Shown piece after piece: positions 1 through 57,169 of a DNA stretch of 64,000 nucleotides (position 1 is its first letter; the number at the start of each line of letters is the position of its first letter). The notes under the pieces were generated by a model. That model was not told where the DNA came from and made no database searches. It saw nothing but the letters and a program-made list of their open reading frames with translations. The translations under genes were made by a program, and so were the position numbers. Source of the stretch: Candidatus Nomurabacteria bacterium (GTDB lineage: Bacteria; Patescibacteriota; Minisyncoccia; Phycocordibacterales; UBA5272); the NCBI GenBank assembly GCA_040376695.1, contig JBEIQD010000003.1, positions 1,789-65,788 of the forward strand, in the 5' to 3' direction.

Positions 1-1164
1 AAAGTCTGAAAGAAGAGGTGGTTCTAATTTTGTGAAATCAACGTCACCGTTAATATCTTTAAGAGCATATGTTTCAGTTATTGCTTGATCAATAATGGCA
101 TCTTCTTCTGGAGTAAGGCCTCCAAGCATCACACGGAAAAGTCCAACGAGGTTAACAATGTTTGAACGAAGCACTTCAGACGGCGATTCATCTTCTGTTG
201 GGTGTGGTAAATCGAAAGGATTAATGTGGTGATCGCTTGTAAGGGAAATATCAAAGTATCTTCCGCCAACAGATTCAGCTAGGTATTCGTACTCTCGCTC
301 AGGGTCAATAATGATGACTTCCGTATCAAACATAAGGGTACGAAGAATTTCGAGTTTCGTCGTGTAACTCTTACCAGAACCTGATTTTGCGAAAACGATT
401 GAGTTGTAATTCTCAAGAGAGAAGCGATCAAAGAGGATGAGAGATCCATTGTGGCGATTGAGCCCATAGAGAATTCCTTTATCAGATGAAAGATCAAATG
501 ACACGAACGGGAAAAAAGAAGAAAGAGGTGACGTGTTCAGTTTATTTTTTATTTGAAGCTGGTCTTGCCCTAAAGGAAGGGTTGAAAGAAATCCAACGTC
601 TTGTTGAAACAATGCTGGTTTTACATACACTAATCGACTTTCTAGTATATTTTTTATTTCATTTTCAACTTTATCAACCTCAGCCTCTGTTGATCCATAT
701 ATGGAAATATAGAGAGATACCTCAAACATTTTTTCTTGTGCTTGAGTAAGTCCGTCACGCAAATCTTCAAGATCTTTGTACGCAACATCAAGTGTAGGGT
801 CACGAACAAGCCCCTTTTCTTCTCGTGTCATAATCTGACTCTCTACTTCCGCAACCTTTCTTTGAAACTGCTTCATGACATCTCCTGTATCAAGCGGAGT
901 TACGTGAATGGCAACATCAAATACCTTGTCCAAGTTAATGATAGGGCTTAGCCAGTTGTCTGTGAGGAATCGTGGGTATGAAATAACAAAGTACGAACGT
1001 ACAATATTTGTCCCCAAGTTGAGACTTTTTGGCCCAACACCCAAAGCAGAGGGCGCAATGATATCTTTCAGTTGCATTTCTGCCACTTTGTAAACCTGTT
1101 CAGGAAGAATAGGGTTTACGGGCGAGGCTGCTTGTTTCTTGTTTATAAAATCGAATATTCCCAT
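1..1164 (-). CDS. VirB4/TraE-family conjugative (type IV secretion) ATPase, central and C-terminal part; 3' end runs off the window (partial)
   Basis: Minus-strand frame open from the ATG at 1164-1162 to the window edge. Translation MGIFDFINKK...RSYFVISYPRFLTDNWL... carries Walker A FAKSGSGKSYTTK and the VIIIDPEREYEYL motif typical of VirB4/AAA_10 ATPases. Not in the ORF track because no stop lies inside the window. Confidence 0.6.
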   Translation of the reverse strand, partial: MGIFDFINKKQAASPVNPILPEQVYKVAEMQLKDIIAPSALGVGPKSLNLGTNIVRSYFVISYPRFLTDNWLSPIINLDKVFDVAIHVTPLDTGDVMKQFQRKVAEVESQIMTREEKGLVRDPTLDVAYKDLEDLRDGLTQAQEKMFEVSLYISIYGSTEAEVDKVENEIKNILESRLVYVKPALFQQDVGFLSTLPLGQDQLQIKNKLNTSPLSSFFPFVSFDLSSDKGILYGLNRHNGSLILFDRFSLENYNSIVFAKSGSGKSYTTKLEILRTLMFDTEVIIIDPEREYEYLAESVGGRYFDISLTSDHHINPFDLPHPTEDESPSEVLRSNIVNLVGLFRVMLGGLTPEEDAIIDQAITETYALKDINGDVDFTKLEPPLLSDF

Positions 1165-1172
1165 ATGTAGTA

Positions 1173-1841
1173 TTAATTATCGTTTATCTTAGGTGCTCCT
1201 CTGTCCTGCTCCCCTGGGTTAAAAAGTTTATAGAAGAGTTCAACCACTTCCTCTGTTCCAAGTTTTTGAGCACGTAATCCAAAACGATTAAGTCCTTGCA
1301 TAACTGTGGCGACTCTCTGTTCAAGCTGTATACGTGCGGCATCAAATGACCCCTGTTCTCCACCAGTAGAAGAGTTAGCTAAACCAAACGATAAGAATTT
1401 ATTCGCTTGATTTTGAGTATTAGTTTGAGCGGGTAAATATGGAATCACGATGAAGAAATGTTTTGTCATAATATTTGTTTCTTCTGTAAACTTTGTGATA
1501 AAGCCCATGTATTCATGGATTTGAATCTTAAGAAGATCTTCCTTCACTTCCCCTGATCTCTGTTGAAGAAGATCCATATACGGCTTGATGTTGAGTCTTC
1601 TTGATTGAATAAAAAATTGAATCGGAAAATCAAGTGAGTTGAGGAGATTCTGAAACTGAAGAAGAATAGCCTGTTGCTCATCCTCGCTCTTCAAAGAGAG
1701 GTTAAGAGACGAAGTAATAAGAACAGCGCGAAGCTCTCCATTCTTAAGCACAACAACACCATCACGCACGCGTTCGATTGGTACAAATTGTTGAGTTGCT
1801 ATTCCAGAAGCCATATCTTGAAGTATACAGCATAGAAACAA
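1173..1841 (-). CDS. VirB4 N-terminal domain fragment (PrgJ/TraE-like), separate ORF in a different frame from the ATPase part
   Basis: 222-aa ORF containing ...VVVLKNGELRAVLITSSLNLSLKSEDEQQAILLQFQNLLNSLDFPIQFFIQSRRLNIKPYMD, which resembles the conserved N-terminus of Gram-positive conjugative VirB4 ATPases. TAA at 1175-1173 is followed 8 nt later by the ATG of the ATPase ORF, in another frame. Confidence 0.5.
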   Translation of the reverse strand: MFLCCILQDMASGIATQQFVPIERVRDGVVVLKNGELRAVLITSSLNLSLKSEDEQQAILLQFQNLLNSLDFPIQFFIQSRRLNIKPYMDLLQQRSGEVKEDLLKIQIHEYMGFITKFTEETNIMTKHFFIVIPYLPAQTNTQNQANKFLSFGLANSSTGGEQGSFDAARIQLEQRVATVMQGLNRFGLRAQKLGTEEVVELFYKLFNPGEQDRGAPKINDN

Positions 1842-1850
1842 GACCGAAGC

Positions 1851-2294
1851 TTATTCCTGTGAGTTACGATCAAGAACATCGAGACCAAGAGACACTTCGT
1901 GAAGCCTATCTTTGTTTACTTTTGAAACGGTTACTTCTTTTTCTGCGTCAGCAACTACCTTTTCTATGTTGGAAGTGTTTTCGGTTTGTTCTTTCGGTTG
2001 TTTCCATGTATAAATTTTGCCCCCTGTATAGTAAGCAAAAGCGCTTTCAAGTAAATCTCCAAAAGGTCTATTGTTGATTTTTACAAAAGCGAGCGAAAGA
2101 AAAAGTCCAGAAACCAAGAGAATAAGAACAACCGCAATAATTTTTATTGGAATAAATGTCCAAATAATAAAAGAAAATCCACCAGCGCCTAGGATATACC
2201 CAAATTGTTTAAGGGTAAGGGGTCCGACAACCTTGTCTTCCATGTCGATAAATTGAGGAACTCGGAATTGCATAGAGTAAAGTATATCACGCAC
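1851..2294 (-). CDS. PrgI/VirB3-like small T4SS membrane protein
   Basis: 147 aa with QFRVPQFIDMEDKVVGPLTLKQFGYILGAGGFSFIIW and a hydrophobic helix. Sits immediately upstream of VirB4, the usual position of PrgI-family (VirB3-analog) genes. Confidence 0.5.
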   Translation of the reverse strand: MRDILYSMQFRVPQFIDMEDKVVGPLTLKQFGYILGAGGFSFIIWTFIPIKIIAVVLILLVSGLFLSLAFVKINNRPFGDLLESAFAYYTGGKIYTWKQPKEQTENTSNIEKVVADAEKEVTVSKVNKDRLHEVSLGLDVLDRNSQE

Positions 2295-2301
2295 TGAGTA
2301 G

Positions 2302-3069
2302 CTACTCAGAAGCCTCTCTGTAAGGGTCGATATTGTATTTTGTCGGGGCCTTACTATAGGAAGCCGTTTGAGCCTCTGGGGTTACTGCTTTGTCGTCCCC
2401 CGCGTGAGGCATAAACTCCTGAAGGGCAATGTTTGAGTCTAAAGCCCTATCATCTTTTGCTTCTATTCCAGAGATTTGTTCCTGGATTTTCTTAAGTCGT
2501 TCAGAAACTTCTTCATCGTTTGGAATTGTGTCTAGTATTTGTAACTGTTCTAGAAGTTGAGAGCGGGATCCCGCTACCACTGTTGCTTTTTTAGCCGCAG
2601 CGGGCGCCGGACTTACTGTTGCCGGAATTGATGGTTGGTTTTGATTTAAAACAGCCACTGGCTCTCGTTTCGTTGTATCAAGGATCTCTTTTCGTAGCTC
2701 ATCTGGAGATCTCCCTTCTTGGAACGTTAGAGTGACCATATCTTTAGGAGATTTACCTAAAATGCTAATACGAGCTTTTTCTAGAATGGTTTTGTCCAAA
2801 TCAGCAGCAAGCTTATAAGCCTCTTCCTCAGAAAGGCCCAATATATCAACAATTGCCCGCACCACATCCGTTGGCTTTAAAGCGCCAATAAGAATAAACG
2901 AAATAATGTTTGAAAGCGCGATGTAGGAGCTTACGGGTATTTTATACACCTTGCCTAAGATCGCTGTTGCATTGTTCACTTCGTCACCATGAATAAGCTC
3001 CTGAATATCAGCCGGAGATTGATCAAATAAATCATCCTGATTTGTTGCTATGTATGACGGGTTACTCAT
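2302..3069 (-). CDS. hypothetical protein in the T4SS-like locus
   Basis: 255-aa ORF packed between the VirB6-like and PrgI-like genes with 2-8 nt spacing; no recognised motif. Confidence 0.5.
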   Translation of the reverse strand: MSNPSYIATNQDDLFDQSPADIQELIHGDEVNNATAILGKVYKIPVSSYIALSNIISFILIGALKPTDVVRAIVDILGLSEEEAYKLAADLDKTILEKARISILGKSPKDMVTLTFQEGRSPDELRKEILDTTKREPVAVLNQNQPSIPATVSPAPAAAKKATVVAGSRSQLLEQLQILDTIPNDEEVSERLKKIQEQISGIEAKDDRALDSNIALQEFMPHAGDDKAVTPEAQTASYSKAPTKYNIDPYREASE

Positions 3070-3071
3070 AA

Positions 3072-5552
3072 TTATGCTGCGGTTGTGTAAGGTGTCTCAT
3101 TCGATGCTGATCTGGTTGAGTTAGACGGAGAAGGTTTTGGTGCTGTAGCGGTTGACGCGCCTGCGCCACTTTCATTATTTTTGTTACTTGTGTCTATGTT
3201 TCTTTGTGCTTCTGCTTGTTTTATTTTTCTTCTTTCTGCAAAAGATTCTTTTTGCATGTCAACGACAGAAGAAGATTCTTTTGATGAGGCAAAGTTTTTT
3301 TGCATTTCTGCAACTTCTGCTGCACTCATCATTTTTGCTTCTTCCGTTGGGTTCATTCGTTGTTCATCTGCAATAGCTTCAGCTTTTGTTGCTTGTAGCT
3401 GGGTTCCACCCCCTTCGTTTCTGATTCGCTCCTGAACATTAGCAGGAAGAGATTCGAGATACTCTTCTTTGTCTCCATCCTTTTTCCTTCCGTATGCTTT
3501 AACAAGCTTGTCCTCATCCTCTTTGATACTGTCTGCCGTTTTTTGCGCATCACTCTTAGCACCCCCAAGGAGTACTGCTCGTTGACCTGTGGATCCAAGC
3601 GAACCCGTTTTCTGTGCTATATATCCTTCACGAGCACTTGCATCTTTAATGCTTCCGTACTTCTTCTTCATTGCAAGATCTCTTGCCTCAAAATCTTTGT
3701 CATATGTTTGTGTTGTCCCCTTACCCATTCCCATACCAGCACTTGCCATACCGCGGTTTACCATTCCAATATTACGAGTATCAAATGTACTTTGTGCTAA
3801 GGAATTTGTGAGTGAATATAAACCCCTTCCTGTTCGTGAGCCCTGCATTTTATCCATCATCCCACTATCACGTAACCGCGCCGCAGCGAGACCAACACTT
3901 CCCCGGGCAAGCAATCCTGCGCCCCCTGAGGCAACCCCAAGTCCAAATCCACCTACTTTACCTATTGCGTTAGTTGCCATCTCGCCCGCCGTGCCCGCCG
4001 CCGCTTTAGTTACTTTAAGCATGATGTGGAGCATAACAATCATCATAAGAATATTAAAAAATATTTTTACATTTTCAGCCCCTCCACTTGCAAGTGGTCC
4101 TCCTGCCGTCTGGAACACATCCATAAACTTAAGAGTGAGAGCAAGCATAATCATGAACACCGGAGCCACAATGAGCTGTTCAAAAAACATCTTACGCATC
4201 TTCACTGCGACATCTCCTAGTTTTGGTACAACGGCATCAACTAAAAGAAGCGGAGAAGCAACAATAAGAAAAGCAAATACGGCAGCTCTCATAACGAGAA
4301 GCGCTGTCGCCATAAAGAGAACATACGCAGCATAGAGCGCAAAAACCACAGCAACCAATGCCCCTGGGGTGCTATTAATTCGTGAGGTAAAACCAGAACC
4401 AGTGTCGGTTTTTGTTGCGCTTACGAATAGATCGGTCAATCCAAGTCTATTCATAATAAGAGATCCAGCGGTGTTTCCTCCAGAGGTTGTTATGTCACTT
4501 CCAAAGTTACTTCCCAAAGCTTCACTCCCTACCGCACTTGAATAAATATTTAAGGAAACAATATTTGAGACATCAACAAGCGCTCTTGTTACGGGATATG
4601 AAAAGTTTACAAAAAGAGCGAATATCGCAAGCCACCCAATATATTTACCAAATGTGTCTTCACGTCCGATGATATACATGAACCCAAGATACAGTCCCGC
4701 AAACACTACAACGAGAGAAACTATTTGGCGAATAATTACCCATATAGGATAGAGTGATGTTGGTGACCATTTAGCAAAATCAAGAACACTTATCTGAATT
4801 GCAAAGTTGAGCATGTTAGCCGCAAGCCAAGCAAGAAAACCAGCAATCTGTAGGAACGTATTCTTAACCAACCATGCAAATCCAGCGTCAATACAATCTA
4901 CGATTGAAGCATTGAAAAGCGAAGTACATTTTTTTGTATCGTTAGCGGCCACTATCCCTGAAGAAGACTCACCCGCAGTGGAAACTGCTGTGGCGTTGCC
5001 GAGTGAGTTTGCTTCTGCACTACCGGCGGTGATTGTGCCAGCTTCAATTTGTTTAGCTTGTGTGAGGAGCTGTGCCCACTGAGTTGTGTATGTTCTAATA
5101 ATGCCGTTTGCTCGGGGTTCTTGTTTTTCTTGCACTGTTAAAGCTCCCCAGCCCGACTGAAACTTAGCTTCTGCGGCAACATTTGCTTGAATGGCCGCTT
5201 TTACAGGACTGAGTCCTACTCCCTGTGACTGAGCGAAGCTTGCTGTATACGTTGCCTTCTCGTCCTGAAATACTTTTATGTTCTTCGCTAAGGTTGCCGA
5301 TATTGTTGCTTTGTTTGGTTCATTGGTCAGAGCGTCTACCGCTTTCTTTGTGTCCTCGAGAGATTTTATGGTTGCATCCAAAATAGCGATACCTTGGTTA
5401 GAAAAATAAGAATACGACCCTTGAGTGTTTGCAATAGCGCCAGATTCAGTTTGTCTATCAATTCCTTGAGCAAAAACTGTAGAAGGTTGAGCTACCCAAA
5501 GGATACTCAAAACTAGGACGATACTACACGCAAAAAAACCAAGTCGTTTCAT
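3072..5552 (-). CDS. large polytopic membrane protein, VirB6/TrbL/PrgH-like candidate T4SS channel component
   Basis: 826 aa. N-terminal signal peptide MKRLGFFACSIVLVLSILWVAQPSTVFA, a central block of at least six hydrophobic helices, and a charged K/E-rich C-terminal tail. Position within the T4SS-like operon. Confidence 0.45.
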   Translation of the reverse strand: MKRLGFFACSIVLVLSILWVAQPSTVFAQGIDRQTESGAIANTQGSYSYFSNQGIAILDATIKSLEDTKKAVDALTNEPNKATISATLAKNIKVFQDEKATYTASFAQSQGVGLSPVKAAIQANVAAEAKFQSGWGALTVQEKQEPRANGIIRTYTTQWAQLLTQAKQIEAGTITAGSAEANSLGNATAVSTAGESSSGIVAANDTKKCTSLFNASIVDCIDAGFAWLVKNTFLQIAGFLAWLAANMLNFAIQISVLDFAKWSPTSLYPIWVIIRQIVSLVVVFAGLYLGFMYIIGREDTFGKYIGWLAIFALFVNFSYPVTRALVDVSNIVSLNIYSSAVGSEALGSNFGSDITTSGGNTAGSLIMNRLGLTDLFVSATKTDTGSGFTSRINSTPGALVAVVFALYAAYVLFMATALLVMRAAVFAFLIVASPLLLVDAVVPKLGDVAVKMRKMFFEQLIVAPVFMIMLALTLKFMDVFQTAGGPLASGGAENVKIFFNILMMIVMLHIMLKVTKAAAGTAGEMATNAIGKVGGFGLGVASGGAGLLARGSVGLAAARLRDSGMMDKMQGSRTGRGLYSLTNSLAQSTFDTRNIGMVNRGMASAGMGMGKGTTQTYDKDFEARDLAMKKKYGSIKDASAREGYIAQKTGSLGSTGQRAVLLGGAKSDAQKTADSIKEDEDKLVKAYGRKKDGDKEEYLESLPANVQERIRNEGGGTQLQATKAEAIADEQRMNPTEEAKMMSAAEVAEMQKNFASSKESSSVVDMQKESFAERRKIKQAEAQRNIDTSNKNNESGAGASTATAPKPSPSNSTRSASNETPYTTAA

Positions 5553-5668
5553 ACCGTGAAGTGTATCATGTCAAACGTCTCAATCATCGCCATTATTATG
5601 GATAAATCATAATTTCATAAAGAAAAATAGCCCCCGCAAGGGACTATATTTCTGTGTAAGTATTTATC

Positions 5669-7360
5669 TTAGAACGCACCACCGTCACCTCCCCCTGATT
5701 GATTATTTTGTTGGTAGCTTTGACGTATCTGAGCGCATTCCGTGGTGAGTCTAGGAATTGATCCCACAGAACTGTTGTCCTGCTTGATTGTGCCATTAAA
5801 TCTTACGAAATCAGCCTGTCTTTTTGAAGCTGCTGAAAGACTTGGAAGTCCTTGGTCTTCAACTTTTTTCTGATAATCACTAAATAGTGTTGTTATTTCC
5901 CCCGTCGATTTTGATGCAGCAACCGCAACAAGTGTGTCATTGATGAGGGTTCGCGTTGTGTTGATACCGTTAAGGTTTTTAGTTGACTCTGCCTGTGTAC
6001 TTTGAATAACAGCTAGTTTATTTGAAGTGAAGCTAAGCGCTGAAACAACGCGCGGATCGTTTTTTAGATTAAAATCTTCACCCAGCTTTTCATAACATAC
6101 TTGAATGGTTTGTATGCTATTTTGATACCCAGCCAGCTCAGCCAGGAAGCTTCGCTCAGTGCCTTCAAGTGAGTTTAAAGAAGTGAGGTGGGCTTGAAGT
6201 GGGGTTTGTACTGTACTTGCAGTTTCTGTTTGCTTGCTTGGAGTATCAAGATCTTGAATTTGATTTAAACTTGCTTGATTACTGTTCCCTGGAGAAATAT
6301 CAGATAGCTGTCGTGTAGAAGCCACAACCTGTAAAATTGAACTCAAACTGTTGAATATACCAGAACCAAAAGTACTTTCCAGTTTTTTTAATGGAGCGTT
6401 TAAAGCTTCCTGGAAGGCGCTACTCAAAGCACTTCCTGTATTTGTTATGGTTTCTACTCTACAAGGAACGTTTGCGATATCAGATCCGTCTGCTGTTGCT
6501 GGTTGGTCACACTTTGTGGCACTCGCGATACCTCCACCCCTGTTCAAGTCAGCTTCTGCTGCCTTTTCTTTTTTAGCTTTATCTTCCGCTATGGCAACTT
6601 GCGTTCGAACGCTTCGATTATATTCATTATCACCAAAACTTACCGCCAAAAGACTATCAGTTCCAGCTATATCTGGTCGTTGCTTACCAACTGCTTCCAG
6701 TTTTCTTGCAAGCGGAATGTTGATGGTTGGATTCCCTACACATAATGAGTTAAAAAGATCTTGTTTTCTGTTTTGGTATGCCTCTAAATCATACGTCCCG
6801 TCACTTTTCATTACATCATTCTTCGCTACGTTTGAAAGCGAAGCATCTTTACAGAGATTGTTTTGAACAATATTTGGAATTGAGGAGTTGCCCAAAGACC
6901 CCAAGACACTGGTGAGGTTAGAAGATCCTCTATAGCTATTAATGACACTTCCTAGAATACTTGAACTATATGTTCCATTCTGCTGAGAAATATCTCCAAT
7001 ATTAACCCTAACAGAATTTAGTCCTTTATTTTGAACCCATTGTTCAGGGTTTTGAACAAGAAGAGAGTTTCCACCAAGAGAACCTGTTATTAAGTTAATA
7101 GTGTTTGTTTGCTGTTGAATTTGAGCAAGTGCGATAAGGCCATTTCCTAATGGGTCAAGAACAGTATCCTGCAAAAAGCCGGTATAGGCATAAAACTCAG
7201 TAGCCACAGCTGAGGCGGCACTTATAAAGTCTTCCGCTAACTGAAGATATCTAGTAATTTCAGCTTGTGGGTCGAATACCACATATTGAGCATGAGTTGT
7301 TTGAACTGTTGAAAACAAAACAGTGAAGAAAAATGCTGATGTTATAAAAAAGTGTTTCAT
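5669..7360 (-). CDS. secreted hypothetical protein (signal peptide), Ser/Asn/Gln-rich
   Basis: Track ORF 5669..7393. The internal start MKHFFITSAFFFTVLFSTVQTTHA at 7360 gives a canonical signal peptide and avoids overlap with the upstream gene. Confidence 0.5.
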   Translation of the reverse strand: MKHFFITSAFFFTVLFSTVQTTHAQYVVFDPQAEITRYLQLAEDFISAASAVATEFYAYTGFLQDTVLDPLGNGLIALAQIQQQTNTINLITGSLGGNSLLVQNPEQWVQNKGLNSVRVNIGDISQQNGTYSSSILGSVINSYRGSSNLTSVLGSLGNSSIPNIVQNNLCKDASLSNVAKNDVMKSDGTYDLEAYQNRKQDLFNSLCVGNPTINIPLARKLEAVGKQRPDIAGTDSLLAVSFGDNEYNRSVRTQVAIAEDKAKKEKAAEADLNRGGGIASATKCDQPATADGSDIANVPCRVETITNTGSALSSAFQEALNAPLKKLESTFGSGIFNSLSSILQVVASTRQLSDISPGNSNQASLNQIQDLDTPSKQTETASTVQTPLQAHLTSLNSLEGTERSFLAELAGYQNSIQTIQVCYEKLGEDFNLKNDPRVVSALSFTSNKLAVIQSTQAESTKNLNGINTTRTLINDTLVAVAASKSTGEITTLFSDYQKKVEDQGLPSLSAASKRQADFVRFNGTIKQDNSSVGSIPRLTTECAQIRQSYQQNNQSGGGDGGAF

Positions 7361-7364
7361 AGAC

Positions 7365-8324
7365 TTAGTGTGTAATTCCATTATATCCCACAATATAAAT
7401 ATACCCAGGTTCAGTTGAGGTGAATGTTACATTTTTAAGATTAAAATAATCCCCCAACATAGGGTAAATTCTAATTGTTGCGGCAGTTACCTCTTGATAT
7501 TTTTTAAGAGCAACGGTTGCGCGAATAGCATCAGTGTTTGCGGCAGAAAGGTTTGCTAGAGTGTTACTGTACTCAGAAACTCTGTTAAGTGTTGTAAGGT
7601 GGTAAGGAAGTGCTGATTTCGGAACTTCTAATGCTAAAAGTTTCTTCGTTGCAGCTGCCACCTTTTCAGCATCAGCGGCTAAAGGAAGAAGGTTGCCCTC
7701 GTCTGCTGTTTGAAGATACCCGCTGACACTCACTAAATCTCTGGCAACAGTTTCTTTTGTAATAAGATTTTTAAGTATTGTTGCCACAGCGTTTCCGTAT
7801 TTCTTGATTGCTACTTTGTCATCAGTGGTAAGTTTTACGTCTGAAGACGCGTACACAGTTGCTGATACTTTTTGCCCCTCTTCGCTAAGGAGTTGTCCAA
7901 AAACTTCCTGTTTACTAGCCTCATCAACTATCCCGCTTTGCTGTAAAGCTGTCGAAGCAATGTAAGCATTTTTTGTAAATGACGCTGTTATATTATTTGG
8001 GTCATTCAGTATTGCAATCCCTTTCGCATCTGTTTCAAACGTTGCATTAGTGGCTTCTGGAGAAAGAGAAAGTGAGCTTGCGATCAGTTCACCCCAACTG
8101 ATTGCCCCATCATTATTAGTATCTGTTGCAAGATTTTCTGGTTGAGCGAGGTTTCCTAGATTCAGAGGTTCATATCGTCTCGTTTGCGGCTCTATTCCAA
8201 ACCAAGAGGCTGGAAGTAGAGATGTCCCAATCGTTAAAATGAAAACAATACCTAACAACAAGAGAGGTGTATTACTTTTTTCTTGCGAAATGAGGCTTTT
8301 AGATGTGGAGATGTTCATATTCAT
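7365..8324 (-). CDS. N-terminally membrane-anchored hypothetical protein
   Basis: Track ORF 7365..8525. The internal start MNMNISTSKSLISQEKSNTPLLLLGIVFILTIGTSLL (TM helix) at 8324 avoids overlap with the divergent hydroxylase gene. Confidence 0.45.
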   Translation of the reverse strand: MNMNISTSKSLISQEKSNTPLLLLGIVFILTIGTSLLPASWFGIEPQTRRYEPLNLGNLAQPENLATDTNNDGAISWGELIASSLSLSPEATNATFETDAKGIAILNDPNNITASFTKNAYIASTALQQSGIVDEASKQEVFGQLLSEEGQKVSATVYASSDVKLTTDDKVAIKKYGNAVATILKNLITKETVARDLVSVSGYLQTADEGNLLPLAADAEKVAAATKKLLALEVPKSALPYHLTTLNRVSEYSNTLANLSAANTDAIRATVALKKYQEVTAATIRIYPMLGDYFNLKNVTFTSTEPGYIYIVGYNGITH

Positions 8325-8411: not shown

Positions 8412-9164
8412 ATGATTATCCTTATTATCCTCTTTGTGGTTGTTGTTCTTGAATTTTCCTACAGTGCCTATGTTAGAGATGGAATGTATTCCAGAGAAAG
8501 CACACAAGTAAATATCTTTACTCAAGCTTTTGGTGTTTTGAAAGATGTTTTGATACCAAGTTTAGGAGTTATAGGTATTATTGGCTTCGTAAACGGAATA
8601 GTTCCGCATGTTCTAGAAATTCCCTTCACCTTATTTTCTTTCATTACTTGTTTACTTCTCATGGATTTTCTTTACTATCTTTTCCACCGAGCTAATCATT
8701 ATTTTGGATTACTGTGGATGTTTCATTTTGTTCACCACAGCGACACGAAGCTGAATCTAAGTGTTGGATTTAGATCTTCATGGTTTGAAATGGTTGGTCT
8801 ATTTGCAACATACTCCCTGCTTTTGGCGATAGGGTTCCCTCTATCTTTATTTTTGGCAGCATTCACAGTTACATCAACGTATCAATTTTTAACACACAGT
8901 AGGTATATACAAATACCAACTTATTTAGAATATGTTTTTGTAACACCACATTTCCACGCGACCCATCATGATAAAAGAATACAATATCAGAACAGTAATT
9001 TCGGAGGAGTTTTTAGCTTGTGGGATAGATTTTTTTCTACGTATGCAAAAGATGTAGAAGTTTCATCTTTTGGTATTGAAGGATATAAACAAAATAATGT
9101 TATTAAAATCCACACTGATCCGATTCTGCAGTATGTGCGCAGGAAGTTTAGAGCGCTGAAATAG
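8412..9164 (+). CDS. fatty acid hydroxylase / sterol desaturase superfamily membrane protein
   Basis: Three histidine boxes, HRANH, HFVHH and HFHATHH, within multi-TM hydrophobic stretches. Confidence 0.6.
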   Translation: MIILIILFVVVVLEFSYSAYVRDGMYSRESTQVNIFTQAFGVLKDVLIPSLGVIGIIGFVNGIVPHVLEIPFTLFSFITCLLLMDFLYYLFHRANHYFGLLWMFHFVHHSDTKLNLSVGFRSSWFEMVGLFATYSLLLAIGFPLSLFLAAFTVTSTYQFLTHSRYIQIPTYLEYVFVTPHFHATHHDKRIQYQNSNFGGVFSLWDRFFSTYAKDVEVSSFGIEGYKQNNVIKIHTDPILQYVRRKFRALK

Positions 9165-9906
9165 TAAGCCAGACTTCTAAAGAAACATCCTCTGCTCTTG
9201 TTTTTTCGTCAATATTATTTTTAAGAAAAACTTCTTGCCAATTAGTCGTAGGGATTTTCTCCTTCAAATTAGATAGCAGGTATTTTCTTTTGTGTGCAAA
9301 GCCAGCTTTAACAATGTTAAAAAACATTTGCTCGTGGTACTGATTTTTAAAGTTTTTGCGAGATATATTTTTAATCTGTAATACAGCTGAATCAACAGTA
9401 GGGATAGGATTAAAGCTTCCCCTAGATACTTTATACACAAGCTTTGGTTCCCCGTAAGCTTTCACAGAAAGCGAAAGAATGGATTCCTTCCCTTCTTTGG
9501 CACACACACGCACCGCAACTTCTTTTTGAACAAGCACAACCATAGTAGTTGGTTGGTTAACATGAGAAAGATATCGCTCGAGAATGGCTCCTGTTATATA
9601 GTATGGAATATTTGCGATTAATTTATACCCCGCACTTTCTGGGTTATAAGTAAGAGCATCCCCTTCTATAAGGGTGAAGTTTTTGTTCGTGCTAAATTTT
9701 TCAGTAAGTAGCGGGATAAGATCAGTGTCCTTTTCAAGAGCAGTAACGTGTGCACCTGTTTCAATAAGAGATTGAGTAAGGAATCCTTTCCCTGGACCAA
9801 TTTCAAGAATTGAATCTGACGGAGTCACTTCCCCTGCTTCCACAATTGCTATACGTGCTGGGATTGAGGTTAGAAAGTTTTGACCAAGAGCCTTTTTAGG
9901 TTTCAT
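9148..9906 (-). CDS. rsmA: 16S rRNA (adenine1518-N6/adenine1519-N6)-dimethyltransferase
   Basis: N-terminal LGQNFL motif and the SAM-binding LEIGPGKGFLT motif; 252 aa. Confidence 0.9.
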   Translation of the reverse strand: MKPKKALGQNFLTSIPARIAIVEAGEVTPSDSILEIGPGKGFLTQSLIETGAHVTALEKDTDLIPLLTEKFSTNKNFTLIEGDALTYNPESAGYKLIANIPYYITGAILERYLSHVNQPTTMVVLVQKEVAVRVCAKEGKESILSLSVKAYGEPKLVYKVSRGSFNPIPTVDSAVLQIKNISRKNFKNQYHEQMFFNIVKAGFAHKRKYLLSNLKEKIPTTNWQEVFLKNNIDEKTRAEDVSLEVWLTISAL

Positions 9907-11923: not shown

Positions 11924-12214
11924 TTAGCTGGTCTTTTTGAACGATTCTTTTACTTTCTCGCGAGCGGCCTGGAACAGTTCTTCGTAGTTTGGTGCGAGAT
12001 GTTTGAGGGTTGTTGCATAGAACTCCTCCCCCATGTTTGCGCTTGCTTGGAGGGCGTCAAACTTCTCATCCCCCAAGAGTTCATATACATCAAGAAGAAA
12101 TTGTTTCTGTATTGTCTTTGAAATCTCAAGAAGCATAGCTTCGCGCTCTTCCTCAGGAAGTTCCTTGAGTTCAAAGTCTTCTACTAGTTGATTGTAAAGT
12201 TGTGTAAAATCCAT
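11924..12214 (-). CDS. hypothetical acidic small protein
   Basis: 96-aa ORF co-directional with and 16 nt upstream of pcrA. Confidence 0.4.
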   Translation of the reverse strand: MDFTQLYNQLVEDFELKELPEEEREAMLLEISKTIQKQFLLDVYELLGDEKFDALQASANMGEEFYATTLKHLAPNYEELFQAAREKVKESFKKTS

Positions 12215-12218
12215 AGTA

Positions 12219-14444
12219 TTATTTTTCCTTGTTAGTAACTTTCTCTTTTACTTCCTCGATTGCTGCTTCATACGTTTTTGCTTGTAGTTTCTCACCGCTT
12301 GTTGCCATCGAAACATCATTAAGCGCATCCCATAGGTAACTAAGTTCTGCTCTATCTTTATCATCTAGGTGATCATAAGTTCCTTTAGTTGTATCATTTC
12401 GCACGAGATCTCCAAACATACCAAGCGCTAACAATGTTTGACGCTGATTATTGGTCCCATCAAAGTATGACTTTGCGTATTTTTGTATTAGTGTTGCTTT
12501 AAGTTGGCTCGCAGAAAGCTTTGAAATATCTTCTGGAAATTCTGCAAAGGCAGGATTAGTTTTCCCGAAATGGAAATATTTAGTCCAAGTATCTTTTACT
12601 ACCACTTCATTTTTATTCAGTGACGCACTTATGGGTACTGGTTGTTTATTTAAAACATTATTTGCATATGCCCCTGTACCGCCAACTACAACAGCAAAAG
12701 CAATCCAAGAAAGTTTTCCTTTCGAGAGATTATTTGGATTGTTTGACAGGTTTTTGATTCTAGTCGCAAGTATGGCTGAGATTTTTTTAAGCCCTTTCTG
12801 TGGATCTTTTTCAAGAACGGGAATAATTTCTTTTGATTCATTGTTGGTAGCCATATTCCCCAGCACCACTTTGTCAGGAGTTGTCATCCCTTCCCCCATG
12901 GAGTTAGTAAGTAAATCTCGCACAGACTTGGTTACGAGATCTGGGTTTAATTTTTCTTCATCTGTTCGAGTGTCTTCCTTCTTCTCAGATTCCTTAACTG
13001 AAGATGGACCGTAAACCAATCTATTCTCTGAAAGAAAATTTTTTCGCTGTATGTCACTGAGTTTATTTTCTTTCGTAATAAAATCTTTAACTTCTACGTT
13101 GTGTGTAAAAAGAATGTTTTTAATAACATCTCGATATGGGTGCTTTCTAAGACTTTCGTTTTCCGTATAATCTACCGCCCCAGAAGCTTCATTTTTCGAA
13201 GCAACAGTATAGAGAGAAATAAAAGCTTTTTGATCATGAGTAAACATGTCTTCAAACTTTTCGCGCACTTCTGTCTGCGCGCGCGTTTTTTGGATGTTTT
13301 CTTCTGAGCCTTTAATTGCACCTGTTTCTCCTTTGGTCCATTCTGCATTTATTTTCCTTCCCCCGATAAGACGAATAATTTGTTCCTGTTTTTTTTCTGC
13401 CTGTTTTGTAGGACGTAATACAGAAGGACTTTCATTTATTTTTGGCGCTGTTGAAGCTTTAGAAGTTTCCGCAACAGGTTTTTCAGGAGTTGTTTTTGCG
13501 GATGTCTGTTGTCTTTCAAGGTATAGTCTTTCTAGTAAGTCTTTAAACGGCTTGAAATAGAATCTTTCAGTTCTGCCTTTTTGTGCTCCATCAATTTGTT
13601 TCATCATCATCGCCCCCTCTTTCGGCATAAGGATTGTAACCTCCCAAGTCGCTTCATCGCTCGTATGGTCCTTCGGTAAGAGGAATCTTTGCCCTACCTT
13701 AAAGAATTTTGGAACGACCTCTACTTTTTCTGGCGTTTTCGGCGAAGCTTCTGGAACGGTTGGCACACTTTCTTCTGCTGCGACTACTGCTGGTTCTTCA
13801 TTTTTAATTTGTGCTTCTGGTGCAATAGTTGGGGCTGGTATTTTTGCGGCTTCTGCTTTTGCGCGTTCTACAATTTTTTCAAACTCAGAAAGCTTTTGTC
13901 GTAGTTCATCAAGCTTTGCCCCTAATGGCTTATCTTTAATTTCTTCAATAAGTTTCTTTGTTTCTTCTGAAAGTTGTTCAAGTACAGCAAGGGTTGCAGG
14001 ATTCTGTAATTTCCCTTCCAGTAGTTCAGTTTCCTTGTGTAAATTTGAATATTCGCCCGAAAACGCAACAAGTTTACTTAGAATATCCAACTCAACTTTT
14101 TTCTGCGCCGCAGCAAGTGTAAGTTTCTCTCCAAGTGCATCTTCCAATTCTTCTTGTGTATAAAGATCTGAAGGTAGGTTTATTTCAGAAATTCCCTCGG
14201 CATCTCTTTCCAAAGTGAAACCTCTTTTCTTAAGCATCTTTTCTATTTGTAAAAGCTCTTGAAATCTAGCGTTTCGCACCTCTCCTCCTACTTGAGGAAC
14301 ACTAGAAATCACCTCCTTCGGTACAACTTTTTTATCAACAGTAACACCAAAAGTACCAGGGGTGTACCCTTTATTTGTTACAGGTTTCCCGAACTCTCCC
14401 TGAGACCCATTGGGAACTTTAATACCAGAAGGATATATATCCAT
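12219..14444 (-). CDS. large hypothetical protein (K/E-rich, one predicted TM segment near the C-terminus)
   Basis: 741-aa uninterrupted ORF; no recognised catalytic motif. Confidence 0.5.
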   Translation of the reverse strand: MDIYPSGIKVPNGSQGEFGKPVTNKGYTPGTFGVTVDKKVVPKEVISSVPQVGGEVRNARFQELLQIEKMLKKRGFTLERDAEGISEINLPSDLYTQEELEDALGEKLTLAAAQKKVELDILSKLVAFSGEYSNLHKETELLEGKLQNPATLAVLEQLSEETKKLIEEIKDKPLGAKLDELRQKLSEFEKIVERAKAEAAKIPAPTIAPEAQIKNEEPAVVAAEESVPTVPEASPKTPEKVEVVPKFFKVGQRFLLPKDHTSDEATWEVTILMPKEGAMMMKQIDGAQKGRTERFYFKPFKDLLERLYLERQQTSAKTTPEKPVAETSKASTAPKINESPSVLRPTKQAEKKQEQIIRLIGGRKINAEWTKGETGAIKGSEENIQKTRAQTEVREKFEDMFTHDQKAFISLYTVASKNEASGAVDYTENESLRKHPYRDVIKNILFTHNVEVKDFITKENKLSDIQRKNFLSENRLVYGPSSVKESEKKEDTRTDEEKLNPDLVTKSVRDLLTNSMGEGMTTPDKVVLGNMATNNESKEIIPVLEKDPQKGLKKISAILATRIKNLSNNPNNLSKGKLSWIAFAVVVGGTGAYANNVLNKQPVPISASLNKNEVVVKDTWTKYFHFGKTNPAFAEFPEDISKLSASQLKATLIQKYAKSYFDGTNNQRQTLLALGMFGDLVRNDTTKGTYDHLDDKDRAELSYLWDALNDVSMATSGEKLQAKTYEAAIEEVKEKVTNKEK

Positions 14445-17321: not shown

Positions 17322-17980
17322 TATTTGAGTATACCACCGCGAAGTGCAAGGATACCTTCTGTTGAAGATGAGATGACGAGTGTGTTTGTGTTCACGAACG
17401 CATAGATGACGGTGCTACTTCCAGAAGTCCCCACACGCATGTTTTGATTATTGCGAGTGATGTCGGTAAATATAAAAGGAATGCTTGATGTTGATACTTC
17501 TCGTGGTGATCCAACAGCAAGAGCAAGTTCATCAGCATAGAGCTCTTCGTTTTTTAGCATGTAAGAAAAAACATCAGTATAGGAAAGCACTTGCATAGAG
17601 TAACCATATTCAGACTTTGTAATGGTGCCAATGTTGTTTCCAATCGAATCATTAAGAGCAAGAGAAATTGCTAAGAGACGTTTGCTTGTATCCGGTAGTG
17701 TGTCAGTGTTTGTTTGAGGCTGTTCACCCACTACAGGATTTTTTGTTTCGAAAAAGAAAAGAGCTGCAACGGTTGCGATTACCGCGATCAGACAAAATCC
17801 TCCAAGAATAAAAAGCATTTTTGATGTTTGCACATGTGGGGTTGGAATATTACCAACGTCCCCTCCTGCAGAAGCAATGTCAGTAAGACTTGCTTCTTTG
17901 TGCTTAATCTCTTCTGAGATATCGTGTTCAAATGTATCTACGTTGGGTATCATGTGGTAAGTATACAGGTAACCCTTCAC
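17321..17980 (-). CDS. hypothetical membrane-anchored protein translationally coupled to comM
   Basis: 219 aa with one TM helix (MLFILGGFCLIAVIATVAALFFF). Its stop overlaps the comM ATG (TAATG). Confidence 0.45.
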   Translation of the reverse strand: MKGYLYTYHMIPNVDTFEHDISEEIKHKEASLTDIASAGGDVGNIPTPHVQTSKMLFILGGFCLIAVIATVAALFFFETKNPVVGEQPQTNTDTLPDTSKRLLAISLALNDSIGNNIGTITKSEYGYSMQVLSYTDVFSYMLKNEELYADELALAVGSPREVSTSSIPFIFTDITRNNQNMRVGTSGSSTVIYAFVNTNTLVISSSTEGILALRGGILK

Positions 17981-37870: not shown

Positions 37871-37910
37871 AGATATACATTTGTCCTTTATAAAGGACAA
37901 ATGTATATCT
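37871..37910. repeat. 40-bp perfect palindrome (20-bp arms, no spacer) in the cca-recJ intergenic region, overlapping the first in-frame ATG of recJ
   Basis: agatatacatttgtccttta | taaaggacaaatgtatatct. Confidence 0.7.
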
Positions 37911-37924
37911 GGTATACTCGAGCT

Positions 37925-39655: not shown

Positions 39656-39670
39656 TGGTATACTTTCCCT

Positions 39671-44186: not shown

Positions 44187-44343
44187 AAAATTAGAGATTT
44201 AGACACCAGATAATAGATACAAAAGCATCTAAAATCAAAGTTCCTAAATACTATCATGATTTTACCTGCGCCGCAAGAGCCCTACGTCCTCTAAACCTAT
44301 ATACCCATGCTTAAAATGAGCCGCCCTTGCTATACTCATATCT

Positions 44344-57055: not shown

Positions 57056-57169
57056 TTGTATCCCCATTTTATCCTTTCTTCATAGGCACTATTCTCGTAT
57101 ACTGAACGTATGCTTTCGGGTCATTTTTCCATGTTTTATAAACTCTTTTCTTTACACAAGAGGGCGGTA

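What the first reader, a model, noticed from the sequence alone, without database searches (positions are those of the whole stretch)
1..8324. Compact Gram-positive-style type IV secretion/conjugation-like locus with unknown secreted partners
Seven co-directional, tightly spaced minus-strand genes encode, in order: a membrane-anchored protein, a 564-aa secreted protein, an 826-aa VirB6/TrbL-like channel candidate, a 255-aa unknown, a PrgI/VirB3-like protein and VirB4. No VirD4 coupling protein, relaxase or pilin is visible inside the window; they could lie further left. In ultra-small symbiotic bacteria such loci are candidates for host interaction or DNA exchange. The two large secreted proteins have no recognisable family and are the least explained parts.
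Basis: partly seen in the sequence, partly recalled or inferred. Interest (0 to 1): 0.6.

Follow-up and report, generated by a model that had tools for sequence, protein, structure and literature searches.

The report
Chromosomal type IV secretion locus, Paceibacteria
This is the first two-thirds of the chromosomal type IV secretion system that ultra-small Patescibacteria (here a Paceibacteria genome) carry next to their replication origin; the system class was described in 2023-2025, so the finding is real but not new, and what the machine transports is still unknown.

Summary
Seven co-directional, tightly packed minus-strand genes occupy 1-8324: a membrane-anchored protein, a 563-aa secreted protein, an 826-aa polytopic protein, a 255-aa unknown, PrgI/VirB3, a TrsD-like protein (the detached N-domain of VirB4) and the VirB4 ATPase. 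VirB4 is cut by the window edge, not degraded.

About 30 Paceibacteria species have the same order, and it continues with four more genes and then yidC-rnpA-dnaA. No coupling protein or relaxase lies there. VirB4 evolves as slowly as housekeeping genes (dN/dS about 0.01). The three surface proteins evolve 10-20 times faster.

This is the Patescibacteria-clade, monoderm-type (MPF-FATA-derived) T4SS described by Quinonero-Coronel et al. 2025. A related system is essential in a Saccharibacterium (Wang et al. 2023).

New details:
- The 563-aa family has a VirB5/TraI-type N-terminus (DUF4141).
- The 826-aa core is weakly VirB6-like.
- Outside the window, two cell-wall hydrolases share a VirB2-pilin-like module that is kept near-identical within each genome.

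The locus most likely works as a non-conjugative host-contact translocon. Its substrate is unknown.

The parts
7365..8324 (-). Gene A: 319-aa bitopic protein with an N-terminal TM anchor (residues ~21-39) and an extracellular helical-looking domain carrying one EF-hand-like Ca-binding loop (DTNNDGAISWGEL). Family unknown.
   Evidence: ORF and TM scan. Orthologues at the same position in 29 loci, 25-71% identity. Weak EF-hand hits in 10 of 30 members. No PDB sequence match for the family profile. dN/dS 0.10-0.14.
5669..7360 (-). Gene B: 563-aa Sec-secreted, all-helical protein with six conserved cysteines. The N-terminus after the signal peptide (AQYVVFDP) is of the VirB5/TraI (DUF4141) type, so it is a candidate stalk or tip subunit.
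   Evidence: Alignment A3. PF13605 DUF4141 is hit by 10 of 30 family members; the best, P0131, scores 33 bits against a cut-off of 30, while the window protein scores only 14 bits. DUF4141 genes sit next to traJ (VirB6) in Bacteroides conjugative transposons (PMC10434189). TraI of CTnDOT was reported homologous to VirB5 (PMC4027160). AF2 model is poor (pLDDT 56.7); only residues 370-555 form a confident helical bundle. Foldseek hits are unspecific. The family has 462 representatives at E<=1e-3.
5627..5647 (-). Terminator-like hairpin (9-bp stem followed by a T-run) just after gene B, in the only sizeable intergenic gap.
   Evidence: A hairpin plus T-tract with a different stem sequence sits at the same place in L003 and L004, and an identical one in L044. 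The number of terminator-like sites in the region as a whole is not above chance.
5560..5568 (-). -10-like box TGATACACT, 7 nt upstream of the ATG of gene C. It suggests a second transcription start and a leaderless mRNA.
   Evidence: 13 matches to TGNTAYACT in the window against 3.5 expected. The box is conserved in front of C in L001-L004.
3072..5552 (-). Gene C: 826-aa protein. It has a signal peptide, a variable extracellular helical bundle (residues ~47-206), a conserved polytopic TM core (209-~612, with two invariant Cys at 209 and 220) and a variable low-complexity cytoplasmic tail. It is a VirB6-like channel candidate.
   Evidence: 230 homologues, none with a Pfam domain. Alignments A1/A2. 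Domain-wise identity is 0.22 (N-domain), 0.63 (core) and 0.22 (tail). AF2 model pLDDT 76.8. The only specific Foldseek PDB family is R388 TrwI/VirB6: 7o3v_J prob 0.90, target-normalised TM-score 0.53, E about 1. HHalign against a Firmicutes T4SS polytopic family: prob 68%, E 4.7e-5, 254 columns. The Pontibacillus member of that family hits Pfam TrbL at 2e-4. Pfam TrbL is hit by 0 of 30 members of the C family.
2302..3069 (-). Gene D: 255-aa protein of unknown family. It has one hydrophobic helix (46-64), a P/A-rich linker, a conserved GSRSQLLEQLQ helix and an invariant C-terminal motif Y-x-x-x-P-x-x-Y-x-x-DPYRE. A protein sits at this position in all loci, but its sequence family is recognisable only within Paceibacteria.
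   Evidence: Alignment A5. No Pfam, NCBIfam or PDB match. dN/dS 0.025-0.04. A protein of 382-394 aa sits at the same position in Moranbacteria and Minisyncoccota loci.
1851..2273 (-). Gene E: PrgI/VirB3-type small membrane protein (140 aa, two TM helices). Expected to act as the membrane anchor for VirB4.
   Evidence: Pfam PF12666 PrgI 3.5e-9, 37.5 bits against a cut-off of 27. TM scan. 60-98% identity across Paceibacteria loci.
1173..1814 (-). Gene F: TrsD/TraD-like protein (213 aa). It is the N-terminal domain of VirB4 encoded as a separate ORF.
   Evidence: NCBIfam TrsD 1e-6, and CD1110 VirB4 model positions 1-160. Orthologues carry PF26593 TraC-like. The same split occurs in all 32 loci. 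dN/dS 0.015-0.02.
1..1164 (-). Gene G: VirB4 ATPase, first 388 of 605 codons. It is cut by the window edge.
   Evidence: NCBIfam CD1110-family VirB4 2e-71; Pfam P-loop_TraG and DUF87. The 388 residues are identical to the complete 605-aa protein on conspecific contig L044. dN/dS 0.008-0.010. The closest plasmid VirB4s are from Firmicutes and Actinobacteria, at 28-36% identity.

Best explanation
The region is the promoter-proximal part of a functional, vertically inherited, chromosomal type IV secretion system of the Patescibacteria clade (derived from the monoderm MPF-FATA class), in a Paceibacteria genome. The full locus has 11 genes, A to K, between rsmA and yidC-rnpA-dnaA. The window holds A to F and the first 388 codons of G.

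Shown here:
- G is a VirB4 ATPase, F its detached N-domain (TrsD-like) and E a PrgI/VirB3 protein.
- The gene order is fixed across about 30 species.
- VirB4, TrsD and PrgI are as constrained as housekeeping genes.
- No coupling protein or relaxase lies in the locus or among the 20 largest other ORFs of the 64-kb window, which were scanned against Pfam.

Inferred mechanism:
- VirB4 hexamers dock on the membrane through PrgI (and perhaps TrsD and D) and power assembly and transport through a channel made by the conserved TM core of C (VirB6-like).
- C's variable extracellular helical domain and the secreted, disulfide-bonded B protein (VirB5/TraI-type N-terminus) would form a stalk or tip that crosses the wall and touches the host cell. 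This would be analogous to the VirB6-VirB5 stalk of plasmid R388.
- Downstream, a metallopeptidase-like hydrolase (I) and a lytic transglycosylase (K), both carrying the same VirB2-pilin-like membrane module, would open the peptidoglycan.
- A, H and J would be anchored or secreted scaffold or adhesion parts.

Because no coupling protein or relaxase is present, the machine most likely does not conjugate. It more likely moves proteins or other macromolecules between the epibiont and its host. The direction and the substrate are unknown.
For: - Component assignments.
- Synteny in 37 genome loci plus 4 metagenome loci.
- Completion of VirB4 and the following gene H on a conspecific contig.
- Selection: VirB4 dN/dS 0.008-0.010, compared with UvrD 0.012-0.014 and RsmA 0.03-0.04. 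A, B and C are at 0.10-0.20.
- Domain-wise variability of C.
- VirB6 link for C.
- VirB5/TraI link for B. The AQ-x-x-VFD motif is shared with R388 TrwJ.
- The rest of the window is housekeeping with the same G+C content.
- Literature: the Patescibacteria VirB4 clade nested in MPF-FATA, with TrsD, VirB3, VirB6 and VirB1 nearby, no relaxase, and proximity to dnaA, rnpA and ksgA (PMC12102498). The T4SS is essential for epibiotic growth of a Saccharibacterium and lacks a recognisable coupling protein and relaxase (PMC10633639; PMC12857230).
Against: - No experiment exists for any Paceibacteria T4SS. Essentiality is shown only in a different class (Saccharimonadia), whose locus has a pilin array that this one lacks.
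- The VirB6 assignment fails the Pfam TrbL test (0 of 30 members). It rests on weak fold and profile similarity.
- The VirB5 assignment rests on a roughly 50-residue N-terminal signature. PF07996 is not hit. The B model is poor and its fold matches are generic helical bundles.
- No VirB8-like protein was identified.
- Coupling-protein homologues are common elsewhere in Patescibacteria genomes (PMC12102498), and the rest of this genome could not be searched.
Confidence: 0.8

Rival explanations
1. A dedicated import machine. The T4SS takes up host DNA, nucleotides or other macromolecules, like H. pylori ComB or the archaeal Ced system. These also work without a relaxase, and ComB works without a coupling protein.
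For: There is no relaxase or coupling protein in the locus. These organisms lack nucleotide synthesis (PMC10633639). There is a very weak NCBIfam CedB hit (E 0.033). The FEMS review speculates about uptake from the host.
Against: The window already encodes the standard uptake channel ComEC (40202-41722). In Southlakia, comEC loss abolishes competence but is not lethal, whereas the T4SS is essential. No ComB- or Ced-specific component was detected.
Confidence: 0.12
2. A true conjugation system whose coupling protein, relaxase and oriT are encoded elsewhere in the genome.
For: The VirB4, PrgI and TrsD lineage comes from conjugative elements of monoderms. VirD4-like genes are frequent but distant from virB4 in Patescibacteria (PMC12102498).
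Against: Relaxases occur in only about 103 of 3,035 Patescibacteria genomes. The locus has a fixed chromosomal position next to oriC in about 30 species, has no integrase or repeats around it, and has the same G+C content as its flanks. The t4cp gene was not essential in Southlakia, while the T4SS genes were.
Confidence: 0.05
3. A decaying remnant of an integrated conjugative element.
For: VirB4 appears as two ORFs and is truncated in the window. No coupling protein or relaxase is present.
Against: The split is the native TrsD + VirB4 arrangement found in all 32 loci. The truncation is the window edge: a conspecific contig has the full 605-aa protein with an identical N-terminal 388 aa. dN/dS is 0.008-0.2 for all seven genes. 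There are no internal stops.
Confidence: 0.01

Closest known systems
Patescibacteria-clade T4SS (Quinonero-Coronel et al. 2025, Microb Genom, PMC12102498), Paceibacteria arrangement
   Same: The VirB4 is of MPF-FATA ancestry. A separate TrsD and a PrgI/VirB3 sit directly upstream, with a polytopic VirB6 candidate. A VirB1-type hydrolase is associated with virB4 specifically in Paceibacteria. There is no relaxase or coupling protein nearby. The locus lies next to ksgA(rsmA), rnpA and dnaA.
   Different: Nothing essential differs; this locus is an instance of that class. As far as I could read that paper, several genes (A, B, D, H, J) have no family assigned there. I did not find there the VirB5/DUF4141 signature of B or the pilin-module-hydrolase fusions (term search).
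Southlakia epibionticum (Saccharimonadia) essential T4SS, SEML1_0006-0019 (Wang et al. 2023, Cell, PMC10633639)
   Same: It is a monoderm-type T4SS without a recognisable coupling protein or relaxase. TrsD, PrgI, VirB4 and VirB6 homologues are present, and a peptidase and a lysozyme are encoded immediately downstream of virB4.
   Different: Southlakia has an array of six free-standing VirB2-like pilin genes. The Paceibacteria locus has none. Instead, the pilin-like module is fused to the two hydrolases (seen in relatives). It belongs to a different class. Essentiality has not been tested in Paceibacteria.
Conjugative MPF-FATA systems of Firmicutes (pCF10 prgD-pcfC; pGO1/pSK41 trs)
   Same: The order VirB6-like, then PrgI, then VirB4, then cell-wall hydrolase is as in pCF10. 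The TrsD + TrsE split is as in pGO1/pSK41 (NCBIfam TrsD). VirB4 belongs to the CD1110 family.
   Different: There is no PcfC/VirD4, relaxase, PrgL/VirB8-like protein or LPXTG adhesin. The VirB6 candidate is three times longer and has an exported N-domain. A VirB5-type protein is present, and those systems lack one. The locus is chromosomal and vertically inherited rather than on a mobile element.
R388 VirB5-VirB6 (TrwJ-TrwI) stalk (PDB 7o3v, Mace et al. 2022)
   Same: The gene order is B then C, like virB5 then virB6. B has a signal peptide followed by an AQ-x-x-VFD motif, like TrwJ. C's model has TrwI chains as its only specific fold matches.
   Different: The sequence-profile tests fail (PF07996 for B, PF04610 for C). 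Both proteins are 2.5 times larger than their R388 counterparts. There is no outer-membrane core complex (VirB7, VirB9, VirB10), as expected for a monoderm.

Membership tests
Patescibacteria-clade T4SS (MPF-FATA-derived) | VirB4 ATPase of the monoderm CD1110/MPF-FATA type | tested here: met
   NCBIfam NF045971 2e-71 on the 388-aa fragment. The best plasmid relatives are Firmicutes and Actinobacteria VirB4s at 28-36% identity.
Patescibacteria-clade T4SS (MPF-FATA-derived) | VirB4 falls inside the monophyletic Patescibacteria clade in a VirB4 tree | not tested
   No tree was built. Indirect support only: 84-100% identity to the VirB4 of about 30 Paceibacteria MAGs and 54-56% to Moranbacteria and Minisyncoccota.
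Patescibacteria-clade T4SS (MPF-FATA-derived) | Separate TrsD-like ORF and PrgI/VirB3 adjacent to virB4 | tested here: met
   Conserved in all 32 loci.
Patescibacteria-clade T4SS (MPF-FATA-derived) | No relaxase and no coupling protein in the locus | tested here: met
   None among the locus genes or the 20 largest other window ORFs. None downstream in L002, L003 or L044. The rest of the genome is not testable here.
Patescibacteria-clade T4SS (MPF-FATA-derived) | Chromosomal position near oriC (dnaA, rnpA, rsmA/ksgA) in Paceibacteria | tested here: met
   rsmA lies at 9148-9906 in the window. yidC, rnpA and dnaA follow gene K in L002 and L003.
Conjugative MPF-FATA T4SS (pCF10, pGO1 type) | VirD4-type coupling protein and relaxase encoded with the system | tested here: not met
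   Present in pCF10 but absent here and in the syntenic loci.
Conjugative MPF-FATA T4SS (pCF10, pGO1 type) | VirB8-like (PrgL/TraM, NTF2-fold) bitopic protein | tested here: inconclusive
   Family profiles of A, D, H, I and J find nothing in PDB sequences.
VirB6/TrbL (PF04610), for the 826-aa protein C | Match to the TrbL/VirB6 sequence profile | tested here: not met
   0 of 30 family members hit PF04610 at E<=1. As positive controls, TrwI scored 4.9e-50 and PrgH 1e-6.
VirB6/TrbL (PF04610), for the 826-aa protein C | Polytopic membrane protein (at least 5 TM helices) encoded next to virB3 and virB4 | tested here: met
   TM scan, AF2 helices 217-541 and gene order.
VirB6/TrbL (PF04610), for the 826-aa protein C | Fold or remote-profile similarity to bona fide VirB6 | tested here: inconclusive
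VirB5 / TraI(CTnDOT) minor-pilin class (PF07996, PF13605), for the 563-aa protein B | Match to PF13605 (DUF4141) or PF07996 (VirB5) | tested here: inconclusive
   The window protein scores 14 bits on PF13605, below the cut-off of 30. Ten of 30 family members hit it, and P0131 (52% identical) scores 33 bits, above the cut-off. PF07996 is not hit by any member.
VirB5 / TraI(CTnDOT) minor-pilin class (PF07996, PF13605), for the 563-aa protein B | Sec-exported protein encoded immediately upstream of virB6, with a helical-bundle fold | tested here: inconclusive
   The signal peptide and gene position are met. The model is all-helical but of low confidence (pLDDT 56.7). There is no TraC/VirB5 structure among the Foldseek hits.

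The most novel reading that the evidence does not exclude
The Paceibacteria T4SS may be a hybrid not described for any monoderm. It would combine a Gram-positive-type energy centre (TrsD, PrgI, VirB4) with a diderm-like VirB6-VirB5 stalk made of two greatly enlarged, fast-evolving proteins (C and B) that determine host specificity. It would also include two peptidoglycan hydrolases delivered into the machine by a shared VirB2-pilin-like module, which gene conversion keeps identical within each genome. If so, the 'pilin' signal reported near virB4 in Paceibacteria would partly reflect hydrolase anchors rather than a pilus. The A-B-C ectodomains would then be the host-range determinants of these uncultivated epibionts.
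Probability: 0.3. Interest if true: 0.6.

Novelty: new member of a known kind. Interest (0 to 1): 0.35.

Why it matters
Patescibacteria make up a large share of bacterial diversity, and almost all are uncultivated epibionts. Their T4SS is the first T4SS shown to be essential for the bacterium that carries it (Southlakia), yet its substrate and direction of transport are unknown.

This locus adds no new system. It does show that in Paceibacteria the machine is an 11-gene, origin-proximal unit. Its ATPase core is conserved as strictly as core housekeeping genes, while its exposed parts (A, B and the N-domain of C) evolve 10-20 times faster.

That contrast, the VirB5-type signature of B and the pilin-module hydrolases give concrete, testable candidates for the host-contact surface and for host-range determinants.

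Tried and rejected
- An exact-sequence contig look-up for the 826-aa protein (window copy and P0001) found nothing. The look-up with B (P0121) did work.
- The genome-contig scan did not return the window's own genome.
- Pfam and NCBIfam gave nothing for A, C and D, and only chance-level hits for H and J.
- Profile searches of families A, D, H, I and J against all PDB sequences found no meaningful hit.
- HHalign of the C profile against single TrwI and PrgH sequences, and of the B profile against TrwJ, gave no significant result.
- Foldseek with the B model returned only generic helical bundles, and the model is too poor to trust.
- Only two structure predictions were allowed, so A, D, H, I and J have no models.
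- The identity of PF19590 (precomputed on P0156) could not be looked up. I recall it as a TrbL-like family, but that rests on memory only.
- The 'degraded or frameshifted VirB4' idea was considered and rejected.
- A mobile-element origin was considered and rejected on synteny and composition.
- I first read TGTATACT in front of A and F as an extended -10 box. That reading was wrong. Only C and E carry the TGNTAYACT form.
Full report
**1. Observation**

The window (64 kb, G+C 0.37-0.45 throughout) starts inside a gene. On the minus strand of 1-8324 there are seven tightly packed ORFs:
- A, 7365-8324, 319 aa.
- B, 5669-7360, 563 aa.
- C, 3072-5552, 826 aa.
- D, 2302-3069, 255 aa.
- E, 1851-2273, 140 aa.
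- F, 1173-1814, 213 aa.
- G, 1-1164, 388 aa, open at the window edge.

The gaps between genes are 4, 116, 2, 28, 36 and 8 nt. Gene starts were set by comparison with called orthologues. The longer TTG ORF for A (to 8525) overlaps the opposite-strand fatty-acid hydroxylase gene. Topology by gene:
- A has one N-terminal TM helix.
- B has a Sec signal peptide (…THA|QY) and six conserved cysteines.
- C has a signal peptide plus at least five further TM helices.
- E has two TM helices.

**2. Recognisable components**

- E passes the Pfam threshold for PrgI (37.5 bits against a cut-off of 27).
- G is a CD1110-family VirB4 (NCBIfam 2e-71, model positions 183-532) with the Walker A motif GSGKS.
- F matches the TrsD/TraD family (1e-6) and positions 1-160 of the same VirB4 model.

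So 'VirB4' is encoded as two ORFs, as in staphylococcal pGO1/pSK41. The same split is present in all 32 related loci examined. It is therefore native and not a frameshift.

**3. What lies to the left**

The exact contig was not retrievable through C. Protein B led to a conspecific contig, L044 (ERR12387303), which is 97.7% nt identical. Its VirB4 has 605 aa, and its first 388 residues are identical to the window fragment. A 324-aa gene follows it.

Longer relatives are L002 (775-kb contig) and L003, and 37 species-representative loci were fetched with a C-family alignment. Together they show one fixed order:

big variable protein – 96-aa protein – uvrD – rsmA – A – B – C – D – E – F – G – H – I – J – K – (yidC, rnpA, dnaA on the other side)

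The four extra genes are as follows.
- H is a secreted protein with weak Ig/PKD-like hits.
- I has the motifs S-x-H-x-x-G-x-A-x-D and H-W-H. I read these as a LAS/M15-type zinc peptidase. This is a motif-level inference from alignment A7; no profile hit supports it.
- J is a 430-aa N-terminally anchored protein of unknown family.
- K is an SLT lytic transglycosylase (PF01464).

No coupling protein, relaxase or free pilin gene is present on that side. None is present among the 20 largest other ORFs of the window either. Those encode NusA, RNase Y, CCA-adding enzyme, RecJ, ComEC, EF-G, EF-Tu, PGK and similar housekeeping proteins.

In the more distant Moranbacteria and Minisyncoccota loci only the core is recognisable: C, a D-position protein, E, F and G. 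The accessory genes there are different.

**4. Is it alive?**

Codon-level comparison with three relatives gives these dN/dS values:

| Gene | dN/dS |
|---|---|
| VirB4 (G) | 0.008-0.010 |
| TrsD (F) | 0.015-0.022 |
| PrgI (E) | 0.010-0.029 |
| D | 0.025-0.042 |
| A, B, C | 0.10-0.20 |
| UvrD (flank) | 0.012-0.014 |
| RsmA (flank) | 0.027-0.040 |

Synonymous divergence is near saturation (dS 0.5-2.3), so these are rough figures.

Across species, VirB4 stays 84-100% identical while RsmA drops to 55-72% and A and B drop to 24-40%. Within C, the TM core keeps 63% mean identity. The exported N-domain and the C-terminal tail keep only 22%. The tail even differs in length between conspecific strains, 826 against 942 aa.

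The locus is therefore functional and vertically inherited. It is not a mobile-element remnant. Its cytoplasmic and membrane core is under extreme constraint, and its exposed parts evolve fast.

**5. The two 'unexplained' large proteins**

*Protein C.*
- It has 230 detectable relatives, none with a Pfam domain. None of the 30 members scanned hits TrbL/VirB6, while TrwI and PrgH do.
- An AlphaFold2 model built from 107 sequences (pLDDT 76.8) shows an exported helical bundle (47-206, pLDDT >90) followed by a helical TM core.
- Against the PDB, the only specific family among weak Foldseek hits is R388 TrwI/VirB6. Eight chains appear; the best has prob 0.90 and target-normalised TM-score 0.53, with E about 1.
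- The closest plasmid-borne VirB4 (34% identity) lies on a Pontibacillus megaplasmid, in a similar locus. That locus has a TrsD-like ORF plus VirB4, pilin-like genes, a 779-aa polytopic protein and a large peptidoglycan endopeptidase.
- The 779-aa protein hits TrbL at 2e-4, below the cut-off. A profile of its family aligns with C's core over 254 columns (HHalign prob 68%, E 4.7e-5).

Taken together, C works like a VirB6 and is probably a very remote relative. Family membership by the sequence criterion is not met.

*Protein B.*
- The family has 462 representatives at 50% clustering and a uniform length of about 550-680 aa.
- Ten of 30 members hit Pfam DUF4141 at the extreme N-terminus. One member (P0131) is above the curated cut-off. 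The window copy is below it.
- DUF4141 genes sit next to traJ (VirB6) in Bacteroides conjugative transposons (PMC10434189). TraI of CTnDOT was reported as a VirB5 homologue (PMC4027160).
- B shares the motif 'AQ-x-x-VFD' with R388 TrwJ/VirB5, directly after the signal peptide.
- B's model is poor (pLDDT 56.7; only a C-terminal helical bundle is confident) and its fold matches are generic.

B is therefore a candidate enlarged VirB5-class subunit. The supports are its gene position, its export and its N-terminal signature. The case is not proven.

**6. Comparison with what is known**

This kind of locus is published. Quinonero-Coronel et al. 2025 (PMC12102498) surveyed 3,035 Patescibacteria genomes and reported the following:
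- a monophyletic VirB4 clade nested in MPF-FATA;
- TrsD as the most frequent partner;
- VirB3/PrgI and VirB6 near virB4;
- VirB1 associated with virB4 specifically in Paceibacteria;
- almost no relaxases, and coupling proteins rarely nearby;
- proximity to dnaA, rnpA, ksgA and rpmH.

Wang et al. 2023 (PMC10633639) showed that the corresponding cluster is essential for epibiotic growth of Southlakia and lacks a recognisable coupling protein and relaxase. A 2025 review repeats this and speculates on exchange with the host (PMC12857230).

The finding is thus a further member of a known kind. As far as I could read those papers, they leave some details open:
- the families of A, B, D, H and J;
- the VirB5-type signature of B;
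- the rate contrast between the core and the surface parts;
- the hydrolase-pilin-module fusion described next.

**7. A by-product outside the window**

I and K begin with the same module of about 100-130 aa with two TM helices. In L035 this module passes the Pfam cut-off for T4SS_pilin (PF18895, 26.9 bits against 26.6, covering the full profile). Two other members hit it weakly.

Within a genome, the 5' 230-406 nt of I and K are 84-100% identical at the DNA level. This holds in 14 genomes; for example, 364 nt are 100% identical in L003. Between genomes the I proteins are only 26-64% identical. That pattern indicates concerted evolution of a direct repeat flanking gene J. Six loci have only one such gene.

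This may account for part of the 'VirB2-like pilin near virB4' signal reported for this class. It also suggests that the hydrolases are recruited into the machine through a pilin-like anchor.

**8. Transcription hints**

A hairpin plus T-run follows B (5647-5627). A hairpin with a different stem sequence occupies the same place in L003 and L004. A TG-n-TAYACT box lies 7 nt before the ATG of C and is conserved in relatives. The motif has 13 matches in the window against 3.5 expected, mostly just upstream of start codons. This suggests an A-B unit and a unit starting at C, with leaderless mRNAs. It rests on pattern matching only.

**9. Verdict**

The best mechanistic reading is a VirB4-powered, VirB3-anchored translocon. 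Its VirB6-like channel (C) and VirB5-like secreted partner (B) would form a fast-evolving host-contact stalk, with wall hydrolases opening the way. It would serve non-conjugative exchange with the host. Identity of the system is near certain. The roles assigned to B, C and the accessory genes are inferred. Substrate and direction remain unknown.

Noticed in passing
L003:17117-17965 (gene I) and L003:19289-20293 (gene K); likewise in L002, L004, L011, L016, L018, L019, L024-L026, L028, L030-L032. Just left of the window in relatives.: Two cell-wall hydrolases (an M15/LAS-like peptidase by motif, and an SLT transglycosylase) share an N-terminal two-TM module. In L035 the module passes the Pfam cut-off for T4SS_pilin (PF18895). 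Within each genome the shared 230-406 nt are 84-100% identical in DNA, although the proteins diverge strongly between genomes. This indicates gene conversion of a direct repeat flanking gene J.
   Followed up: partly
window 5560-5568, 2281-2289, 17328-17336, 39656-39664, 44328-44336 and others: The motif TGNTAYACT occurs 13 times against 3.5 expected, mostly 5-10 nt upstream of ATG start codons. It looks like an extended -10 box placed so that mRNAs would be leaderless. No Shine-Dalgarno sequences are evident upstream of the T4SS genes.
   Followed up: partly
window 57110-60622 (+): A 1170-aa protein with a C1q-like domain and two Peptidase_S74 (endosialidase or tail-fibre intramolecular chaperone) domains. 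This is a phage-tail-fibre-like surface protein in a chromosomal context. It is followed by a 450-aa protein with a peptidoglycan-binding domain at 62116-63468.
   Followed up: no
window 3072-3710 (C-terminal tail of gene C) compared with L044:10577-13405: In a conspecific strain (97.7% nt identity) the C protein has 942 aa instead of 826. The difference comes from several indels in the low-complexity C-terminal tail, so this is strain-level length polymorphism.
   Followed up: partly
window 37901-39655 and 40202-41722 (+): RecJ and a ComEC competence channel lie close together, so the genome has the standard DNA-uptake route independent of the T4SS.
   Followed up: no
window 11924-12214 and 12219-14444 (-): A well-conserved 96-aa acidic protein (48-97% identity across species) and a very variable, 741-aa, low-complexity protein with one C-terminal TM helix are kept upstream of uvrD in every syntenic locus. 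The large protein is 735-1448 aa in relatives. Their function and any link to the T4SS are unknown.
   Followed up: no
L041 (Pontibacillus sp. ALD_SL1 megaplasmid NZ_CP062975.1, 347256-367088): The closest plasmid-borne VirB4 (34% identity) sits in a similarly built locus. It has two Mbov_0395-type pilin-like genes, a 779-aa polytopic TrbL-like protein, a TraL/VirB3-like protein, a TrsD-like ORF, VirB4 and a 1050-aa peptidoglycan endopeptidase. No coupling protein or relaxase lies within 9 kb, and flagellar genes are next to it.
   Followed up: partly
window 8076-8135 (gene A, residues 64-83): There is a single EF-hand-like calcium-binding loop (DTNNDGAISWGEL) directly after the membrane anchor of A. 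It is conserved as D-x-D-x-DG-x-x-x-W-x-EL in the family, and 10 of 30 members give weak EF-hand hits.
   Followed up: partly
L037:9869-20005 and L040:9767-20071: In Moranbacteria and Minisyncoccota only the core is kept: C-like, a 380-394-aa D-position protein, PrgI, TrsD and VirB4. It is followed by a 3-TM 150-aa protein, a 7-TM 217-aa protein and an 850-920-aa secreted protein, instead of H to K. The accessory parts are therefore class-specific.
   Followed up: no
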